A stretch of 64,000 bases of DNA. Origin: Eledone cirrhosa. Taxonomy: Eukaryota. The position numbers were made by a program, and so were the translations under genes. The notes beneath the pieces were generated by a model. The model saw only the letters and a list, made by a program, of their open reading frames with translations, ran no database searches and was not told where the DNA came from. Numbering within the stretch: position 1 is the stretch's first letter; the number at the start of each line of letters is the position of its first letter. The stretch covers positions 367,040,001-367,104,000 of the forward strand of contig OZ024742.1 in NCBI GenBank assembly GCA_964016885.1, read 5' to 3'. Below are positions 33,158 to 33,895 of this stretch, piece after piece.

Positions 33158-33895
33158 AATTAAGTTAAAGATGTACATCCATATATGTATACTGAAATAC
33201 TAGTATGTATATGAATACACACACGTATACATATGTAGATGTACCAAGTTTTTTCACTGGTCACTTTACTGTGAGTGGCCAGCTATTCTGTATGTAAACA
33301 CACAGACAAACCGGTTTTTAGAGTCATACTGGTTTTTGAGGAAACACCTTTCCTCTATTCTCCAGAAAGCCAGACAAGGAATATTGAACTAGTTTCGTTG
33401 TTGTTACAACTCATCAGCAATATTTACCTATCTTCCGTTGAACCGGTACTTACTCACACTCTATGCAAATTAGTCTGCCCACTACTAATTTTCATAGAAA
33501 AAGCATATAACGATATGTGCTTTTACGATTCTCTAGAGAGGCCGGAAGATAGGTAAATATTGCTGATGAGTTGTAACAACAACGAAACTAGTTCAATATT
33601 CCTTGTCTGGCTTTCTGGAGAATAGAGGAAAGGTGTTTCCTCAAAAACCAGTATGACTCTAAAAACCGGTTTGTCTGTGTGTTTACATACAGAATAGCTG
33701 GCCACTCACAGTAAAGTGACCAGTGAAAAAACTTGGTACATCTACATATGTATACGTGTGTGTATTCATATACATACTAGTATTTCAGTATACATATATG
33801 GATGTACATCTTTAACTTAATTGTTTAAGCGTCAGTCATACAAAAGTGAGTTACAAACGAAACGAAGTTTAATTTCGTTTCGTTATTTGTTTTTA
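33158..33895. mobile_element. Fold-back element with 280-bp arms, a hammerhead in each arm (- 33380-33424, + 33556-33600) and a 3' tail
   Basis: Arms at 33158-33437 and 33543-33822. AATATTG-CTGATGA-GTTGT AACA ACAAC-GAAA-CTAG-TT-CAATATT. (TA)n flanks. Confidence 0.92.

What the first reader, a model, noticed from the sequence alone, without database searches (positions are those of the whole stretch)
33158..33895. Young 280-bp inverted repeat with a perfect hammerhead on each strand
The arms look identical by eye, implying recent formation. Each arm holds AATATTG-CUGAUGA-GUUGU/ACAAC-GAAA-CUAG-UU-CAAUAUU, so transcription from either direction gives an RNA with one ribozyme plus its antisense. 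Such an RNA could form long dsRNA that sequesters the ribozyme or feeds siRNA production (inference). A tail-only relative lies at 36398-36506.
Basis: partly seen in the sequence, partly recalled or inferred. Interest (0 to 1): 0.75.

Follow-up and report, generated by a model that had tools for sequence, protein, structure and literature searches.

The report
Retrozyme pasted in as twin arms
This mirror-image repeat is one of thousands of genomic copies of a 467-base non-coding unit with a predicted self-cutting RNA motif; the hairpin is likely a by-product of a Penelope-type jumping-gene enzyme copying that RNA (probably a circle) from both ends of a DNA break, and two damaged copies joined exactly at the predicted cut suggest the ribozyme does cut in the cell.

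Summary
Observation confirmed: arms 280/280 identical, one complete type I hammerhead core per strand. The hairpin is not a stand-alone device. It is a short insertion of a young, ORF-less 467-nt hammerhead repeat (non-LTR retrozyme; 4,843 exact ribozyme copies, 2,307 exact long ends). Insertions lie in (TA)n as two back-to-back arms with fixed outer ends: one long (+74-nt tail) and one short at 90 loci, one long-long, no short-short, two atypical. This is the Penelope-like element footprint. Either arm can be the longer (18 of 36), arms share locus-specific variants and cross the cut site, which fits two target-primed copies of one, probably circular, RNA. New here: two loci have units joined exactly at the predicted cut with 27-28 nt trimmed, indirect evidence of in vivo cleavage. 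Against: some arrays are mosaic; no partner element, RNA or cleavage was shown. This copy has one ribozyme per strand and cannot excise a unit; read-through would bury it in dsRNA, but a regulatory role is unsupported. The 'tail-only relative' is a complete miniature two-arm insertion. The scan found this architecture before in other families of this genome.

The parts
33158..33437 (-). Short arm: unit positions 417-467 then 1-229 (position 1 = base after the predicted cut); ends at the fixed 'short' site
33434..33896 (+). Long arm: unit positions 308-467 then 1-303, 463 of 467 nt, circularly permuted; ends at the fixed 'long' site
33434..33437 (.). 4-nt microhomology (TCCG) at the junction of the two arms
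33438..33542 (+). Hairpin 'spacer': the part of the long arm not matched by the short arm
33556..33600 (+). Type I hammerhead (stem I 7 bp plus extension, stem II 5 bp, helix III 2 bp with palindromic loop); predicted cut after 33593 (GUU)
33380..33424 (-). Identical hammerhead on the minus strand; predicted cut between 33387 and 33386
33823..33896 (+). 74-nt unpaired tail (unit 230-303) with a predicted hairpin at 33856-33884; lies between the two inferred reverse-transcription start sites
33030..33157 (.). (TA)n target, left flank
33897..33950 (.). (TA)n target, right flank
36396..36506 (-). Second, miniature insertion of the same family: long arm (unit 303 to about 220) and inverted short arm (about 202-229), in (TA)n
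17810..21965 (-). Neptune-like Penelope element (922-codon open frame 18214-20982 with RT-like and GIY-YIG-like motifs read by eye; hammerheads at 21634 and 18008) with a short 3' end and a tiny inverted long-end arm; same footprint, candidate class of driver, no extended homology to the retrozyme

Best explanation
The locus is a short, recent insertion of an ORF-less 467-nt hammerhead repeat family (a non-LTR retrozyme) in a (TA)n tract, and its hairpin likely arose when a Penelope-type reverse transcriptase/endonuclease primed two cDNAs, one from each cut target strand, at two fixed sites 70-75 nt apart on one, probably circular, RNA. Shown: family, tandem arrays, fixed long and short ends, (TA)n flanks, variable inner junction with microhomology, shared variants between arms. 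Inferred: tandem loci are transcribed; the hammerhead (likely as a dimer) cuts out unit-length RNA, which is ligated to a circle; the two enzymes run round it for variable distances; the two cDNA ends are joined by microhomology or end-joining. This copy stopped after 463 and 280 nt, holds one ribozyme per strand and would be a dead end as a source of circles; any dsRNA from read-through would be a side effect.
For: Family: 208 matches, mostly 97-100% identical, period 467/466; 4,843 exact ribozyme 45-mers; 2,307 exact long-end/(TA) junctions. End rule, tallied by hand: one long + one short at 27 of 39 loci (sample A), 45 of 59 (B, picked by long end; 7 are 10-25-nt arms read by eye), 15 of 20 (C, picked by short end; 2 by eye) and 3 of 3 further loci; no short-short. 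(TA) within 12 nt on both sides in 74 of 74 two-arm loci. Not a fold-back: short arm reaches further 5' in 18 of 36, long arm in 18 of 36. One template: divergence 0.11% between opposite arms and 0.27% within arms against 1.57% between loci; 0.75/0.59/5.86% in sample B; locus variants in all units of both arms, e.g. L042 16 of 16, L043 15 of 15, L056 8 of 8. Template not a cut linear monomer: 26 of 36 long and 30 of 36 short arms cross the cut; 4 of 120 inner ends within 5 nt of it, 2.6 expected; 479 of 481 unit junctions there are regular (overlapping loci count some twice). Microhomology mean 2.15 nt (13 of 24 junctions without extra bases) against 0.76 for random joins. Ribozyme under selection: 6 of 16 pairs change on both sides in 6 variants including a 72%-identical sister family. 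Cleavage fossils: L247 and L252 each have two joints of unit 439/440 to unit 1. Circle folds at z = -11 with the ribozyme stems formed. An ORF-bearing Neptune-like family here shows the same one-long/one-short footprint (8 clear loci). Literature: inverted copy and tail are PLE hallmarks; the anole PLE enzyme nicks and extends both strands from two internal sites that bound the tail.
Against: No autonomous element sharing this unit's ends was found (0 of 60 long-end sites lead into an ORF-bearing element; no extended match to 30 Neptune-like loci outside TA-rich sequence). Variants carried by only some units occur in L037, L038, L048, L051, L059, L067; L243 has a period-3 variant in 6 of 12 short-arm units and 0 of 12 long-arm units; a 30-unit arm has recurrent variants: a single monomer circle does not explain these without later local expansion or multimer templates. 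A locus's own opposite arm was its nearest relative in only 18 of 32 cases (7 ties, 7 other loci closer). One long-long locus (L067+L244) and two with atypical opposite ends (L203, L204); 10 of 39 and 10 of 59 loci show no second arm. 11 of 24 junctions have unmatched bases. In vitro the anole enzyme used both start sites on both strands and did not need ribozyme cleavage. Only 1 of 9 predicted Xenopus retrozymes cleaved in vitro. Target-site duplications could not be resolved in (TA)n.
Confidence: 0.68

Rival explanations
1. Same Penelope-type two-ended insertion, but the template is a linear, uncut multimer transcript from a homogeneous tandem locus, and long arrays grow afterwards by unequal exchange or slippage; circles are not needed.
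For: Mosaic and periodic variants confined to one arm (L243, L240+241, L037); unprocessed RNA was the main substrate of the anole enzyme; Li et al. propose local amplification; the ribozyme has a weak helix III.
Against: Many long arrays are uniform in both arms and carry locus-specific variants and a locus-specific unit length (L118/L242, 24 segments with no substitution), which needs repeated one-unit bottlenecks; no pile-up of 5' ends at the cut as partial cleavage would give; L252 repeats two deletions in register, one ending at the cut.
Confidence: 0.2
2. The inverted arm is a fold-back (self-primed) copy of the first cDNA or of an antisense template, as proposed for Penelope head-to-head repeats.
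For: Proposed by Arkhipova et al. 2013; in this window the short arm lies wholly within the long arm; a few junctions are palindromic (L056, L059).
Against: Each arm type extends beyond the other in half of the loci (18 of 36 each way; by more than one unit in 9 and 3), so neither can be a copy of the other in general.
Confidence: 0.06
3. The hairpin is a functional device at this locus: antisense pairing switches the ribozyme off or feeds small-RNA production.
For: Read-through RNA is predicted to form a 280-bp duplex that abolishes the ribozyme stems; rotifer Penelope copies give small RNAs.
Against: The same layout with random junctions recurs at 90 loci; arms equal the family majority, so there is no sign of locus-specific selection; no host gene was identified nearby among the ORFs listed.
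Confidence: 0.04
4. Assembly chimera (fold-back read artefact).
For: No read spanning this junction was seen.
Against: Asymmetric fixed ends, a 105-nt unique spacer, 4-nt microhomology and the same design in diverged, older copies (arms 0.3-2.6% apart) are not expected from artefacts.
Confidence: 0.02

Closest known systems
Metazoan non-LTR retrozymes (Cervera and de la Pena 2020, PMC7229834, parts 2 and 4 of 6 plus passages read; Li, Clavereau and Pollet 2026, bioRxiv 10.64898/2026.07.22.740005, parts 1-3 of 5 read)
   Same: Short, AT-rich, ORF-less tandem units each with a type I hammerhead; thousands of copies; proposed circRNA intermediate copied by a PLE enzyme.
   Different: Unit 467 nt, slightly above the 150-450 bp of the 2020 paper. 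Back-to-back arms, fixed paired ends and (TA)n targeting are not described in what I read ('inverted' has 0 occurrences in the 2020 main text; 1 in the 2026 preprint by the listing, not met in parts 1-3). Expression, circles and cleavage are not shown here. Supplements not seen.
Endonuclease-containing Penelope-like elements (Craig et al. 2021, PMC8557442, passages; Arkhipova et al. 2013, PMC3846280, passages; Frangieh et al. 2024, PMC11167929, parts 1-2 of 4)
   Same: Inverted 5'-truncated copy, tail at one end only, microsatellite/AT-rich target, hammerhead, two internal start sites bounding the tail.
   Different: No RT-endonuclease ORF; tail 70-74 nt, not 30-40; both arms can be many units long; genomic copies use one start site per strand almost without exception, whereas in vitro no strand difference was seen.
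L1 twin/dual priming (Meyer et al. 2010, PMC2837659, passages)
   Same: Both nicked strands prime cDNA on RNA, giving an inverted pair joined internally with or without microhomology.
   Different: No poly(A); both start sites are fixed; arms overlap in sequence instead of flanking an internal deletion; it is the rule, not a minority event.
Canonical metazoan type I hammerhead (Cervera and de la Pena 2014, PMC4209133, passages; Rfam Hammerhead_HH9 RF02275)
   Same: Full core, helix I about 7 bp, helix II 5 bp, helix III 1-2 bp with palindromic loop.
   Different: Below Rfam gathering score (37.7 of 52 bits); GUU triplet in the youngest subfamily; activity untested.

Membership tests
Non-LTR retrozyme | Type I hammerhead in each unit | tested here: met
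Non-LTR retrozyme | Tandem units of a few hundred bases | tested here: met
   family: period 465-469, arms up to 30 units; this copy is under one unit per arm
Non-LTR retrozyme | No protein-coding capacity | tested here: met
   longest ATG-started frame in a dimer 19 codons sense, 60 antisense
Non-LTR retrozyme | Low GC | tested here: met
   0.32 over 32001-34000, flanks included; unit alone not computed
Non-LTR retrozyme | Two consecutive ribozymes in one orientation ('active' by Li et al.) | tested here: not met
   this copy has one per strand; met by 14 of 36 two-arm loci of sample B
Non-LTR retrozyme | Self-cleavage of the RNA | not testable with these tools
   indirect only: covariation and joints at the cut in L247, L252
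Non-LTR retrozyme | Expression as linear and circular unit-length RNA | not testable with these tools
   needs northern blot, RNase R or raw RNA reads
Autonomous Penelope-like element | RT plus GIY-YIG ORF | tested here: not met
Penelope-type insertion footprint | Inverted 5'-truncated arm and tail on one end | tested here: met
   90 loci one long + one short, 1 long-long, 2 atypical
Penelope-type insertion footprint | Microsatellite target | tested here: met
   74 of 74
Penelope-type insertion footprint | Homology to the pLTR of an autonomous PLE | tested here: inconclusive
   only one Neptune-like family and its relatives examined; shared TATCGT at the long end and an 18-of-21 match in opposite orientation
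Penelope-type insertion footprint | Target-site duplication | tested here: inconclusive
   34% against 19% for shuffled flank pairs, confounded by (TA)n
MITE | Fixed terminal inverted repeats around a fixed interior | tested here: not met
   ends asymmetric, junction and arm length vary per locus

The most novel reading that the evidence does not exclude
These arrays are direct DNA records of rolling-circle reverse transcription: a Penelope enzyme dimer binds one ribozyme-generated RNA circle, uses one fixed start site per cut target strand, and each enzyme runs round the circle up to tens of times. The two trimmed-unit loci are fossils of the ribozyme's own cut followed by 3' trimming and ligation or template jumping, i.e. 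in vivo germ-line evidence for the retrozyme cycle, and the one-long/one-short rule explains the Penelope inverted repeat and tail in general.
Probability: 0.5. Interest if true: 0.78.

Novelty: new member of a known kind. Interest (0 to 1): 0.52.

Why it matters
Two questions are stated as open in the papers read: how animal retrozymes are mobilised (a PLE enzyme on a circRNA is proposed, not shown) and how PLEs form their inverted repeats and one-sided tail. A very young, abundant family with a strict paired-end rule, independent arm lengths and copies joined at the ribozyme cut gives exact substrates and predictions for both. The single hairpin is ordinary, but thousands of such insertions could be a standing source of long dsRNA in this genome (inference). 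The scan has noted the same architecture for other families here, so the family itself adds little; the trimmed joints and the fold-back test are what this window adds.

Tried and rejected
Rfam at gathering score: nothing; miRNA and FasX matches are below gathering and reflect the long hairpin. Pfam found no family for the Penelope-like ORF (0 for 3 of 6 proteins that are PLE-like), so its naming rests on motifs read by eye and. Search for the autonomous partner: tail search, hairpin pattern, 60 long-end sites and Neptune-like loci gave none; the 4.7-kb insert at C1:53.9-58.7 kb is an unrelated LINE-like ORF. Sequencing runs: no RNA holder listed. Of 8 runs laid, X4 holds one 497-nt contig closing a 467-nt cycle and X6 two contigs closing a 466-nt cycle, but run types are not on record and genomic tandem arrays also give cycles, so this is not used as evidence; X21 laid no reads (no test); no contig spanning this junction was shown. 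Target-site duplication test inconclusive (the first attempt, printed nothing). Extra trimmed joints: a pattern for deeper trimming found only L247 again; the older subfamily gave one 4-nt internal deletion. Controls: two other 30-31-nt windows gave 0 and 3 deletions with scattered ends, so deletions are not more frequent at the ribozyme; only their end point is notable (2 of 4 loci, rough post hoc P 0.007). Earlier scan notes by sequence, near place and words for trimmed joints: none. Literature searches listed no paper whose title or abstract start describes two-armed retrozyme arrays; the library lacks most subscription journals and supplements were not read. That the host is a cephalopod is my guess from its repeat landscape, untested.

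Full report
Observation. The arms at 33158-33437 and 33543-33822 are 280 of 280 complementary and sit between (TA)n tracts. Each holds the same hammerhead: stem I of 7 bp (extendable past a bulge), CUGAUGA, stem II of 5 bp, GAAA, a 2-bp helix III with a 2-nt palindromic loop and a GUU triplet, predicted cut after 33593. Rfam scores it as Hammerhead_HH9 at E 3.9e-8 but under the gathering score. Such a helix III is the usual metazoan type I form and is thought to need a second ribozyme (PMC4209133, passages); that GUU is weaker than GUC is recalled, not tested.

The family. The right arm has 208 listed matches in the genome, most 97-100% identical, in arrays of period 467 or 466. Exact counts are 4,843 ribozyme 45-mers and 2,307 long-end/(TA) junctions. 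Numbering the unit from the predicted cut, the window holds a minus arm 417-467/1-229 and a plus arm 308-467/1-303; the hairpin is simply their overlap, the spacer is the rest of the long arm, and the junction has a 4-nt microhomology. The unit has no useful ORF and folds as a circle at z = -11 with the ribozyme stems formed. Among 401 ribozyme segments a stem II pair changes on both sides between subfamilies and older copies have GUC; with a 72%-identical sister family, 6 of 16 pairs change on both sides (6 sequences only).

The footprint. I examined three samples. A: 38 loci plus the window; 27 have one long end (301-303) and one short end (226-235), 1 is long-long, 1 is interrupted, 10 show one arm. 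B: 60 long-end sites taken in order along one contig, 59 after removing a duplicate; 45 have an opposite short end (7 of them tiny arms read by eye), 10 no second arm, 4 are complex, none long-long. C: 20 short-end sites of an older subfamily; 15 have an opposite long end (2 by eye), 2 atypical ends, 3 unresolved, none short-short. Three further loci also conform. All 74 two-arm loci tested have TA on both sides. The 36.4-kb 'tail-only' piece is the same design in miniature. An inverted 5'-truncated copy with a tail on one end is the described PLE structure, and the anole PLE protein nicks and extends both target strands from two internal RNA sites that bound the tail. A Neptune-like family with long open frames, one copy of which lies in this window, has two 3' ends about 60 nt apart and the same pairing at the 8 loci (of 38) where both ends were readable with my motifs; L163 is a possible exception. 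It shares no extended sequence with the retrozyme, so the driver is inferred by class only.

How the arms are made. If one arm were a fold-back copy of the other (self-priming is proposed in PMC3846280), it could not reach further 5'. In sample B the short arm does so in 18 of 36 loci and the long arm in 18; lengths are uncorrelated. Both arms therefore likely come from RNA. They mostly come from the same haplotype: 0.11% between arms against 1.57% between loci in A, 0.75% against 5.86% in B, with locus variants in every unit of both arms. The stricter nearest-neighbour test is weaker: own arm closest in 18 of 32, 7 ties, 7 not. Junctions show microhomology (mean 2.15 against 0.76; 13 of 24, the other 11 have unmatched bases), as in L1 twin priming.

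Circle or multimer. Most arms run through the cut site (26 and 30 of 36), inner ends do not pile up there (4 of 120, 2.6 expected) and 479 of 481 unit junctions are regular. A cut linear monomer is thus not the usual template; a circle or an uncut multimer is. Uniform arrays with locus-specific variants and unit length favour a one-unit bottleneck. Against this, six loci of sample A have variants in a subset of units, L243 has a period-3 variant in one arm only, and a 30-unit arm is mosaic, so later local expansion or multimer templates also occur.

Fossils of cleavage. L247's long arm begins at unit 1 and has two joints of unit 439/440 to unit 1, one with a stutter of the first bases; no microhomology. 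A genome-wide pattern found one more such locus, L252, with a 339-nt-type unit in which the 439-to-1 joint and a second deletion (136-235, removing the short start site) both repeat, and no second arm is present. Two other deletions in this window are internal; control windows had 0 and 3 deletions with scattered ends. Two of four ending exactly at the cut is unlikely by chance (rough, post hoc P 0.007). The simplest reading is an RNA with its 5' end at the ribozyme cut, trimmed at the 3' end to just beyond stem I, then ligated (L252) or jumped across (L247). It rests on two loci.

The arms point outwards, so read-through from either side makes the antisense first and the ribozyme stems are predicted not to form. 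That is a fair prediction, but this copy has one ribozyme per strand, cannot excise a unit, equals the family majority and has no sign of its own function. No RNA evidence was obtainable (see Tried and rejected).

Comparison and verdict. It works like, and on the testable features is, a metazoan non-LTR retrozyme; cleavage and circles are untested, and this copy fails the two-ribozyme criterion. It is not an autonomous PLE or a MITE. The paired-arm layout of retrozyme arrays was not described in the papers as far as I read them, but earlier notes of this scan report it for 310- to 500-nt families of this genome; my reading was written before that look-up and the notes are not counted as support. 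New member of a known kind; interest 0.52 for making two open mechanistic questions testable.

Noticed in passing
window 31892-32190 and 36986-37299: Two more hairpins in (TA)n (140- and 146-bp arms) with hammerhead-like cores on both strands, from other families.
   Followed up: no
window 35259-35829; L043:9000-10000; L044:1-1300: Diverged member of a sister lineage (466-469-nt unit, 72% identical to this family, different stems, GUA triplet); in the window copy no long end was seen.
   Followed up: partly
window 17810-21965 (-) and 27469-29630 (-): Two Neptune-like Penelope elements with hammerheads in their terminal repeats; the first family has 42,515 first-look candidates and a copy with a 1,239-codon open frame. 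Its N-terminal part carries asparagine-rich stretches like those described in rotifer Penelopes.
   Followed up: partly
L257 long end versus unit 278-298: The 21 nt before the Neptune-like long end match 18 of 21 the reverse complement of the retrozyme's last hairpin arm (1 of 300 shuffles as good; post hoc, opposite orientation), and both long ends continue as TATCGT followed by a small predicted hairpin. Unexplained.
   Followed up: partly
L067 + L244 (G000:C1:363.10-363.11 Mb): The only long-long locus; its array changes haplotype midway, as a recombinant of two insertions or a mis-join would.
   Followed up: partly
inner arm ends, samples A and B: 26 of 120 inner ends fall at unit 250-300, about twice the even share, near the tail hairpin: possibly a pause site.
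   Followed up: no
window 34436-34712 and 35846-36122; 61440-62640: Another palindromic repeat family in (TA)n whose copies flank later insertions.
   Followed up: no
window 12912-17180 (+); 30632-31600; L239: LINE-like elements (endonuclease and RT matches); an unrelated LINE-like ORF of 1,040 codons interrupts a retrozyme arm in L239.
   Followed up: no
window 32600-33026: A separate high-copy repeat directly left of the (TA)n flank (deep cover in run X1).
   Followed up: no
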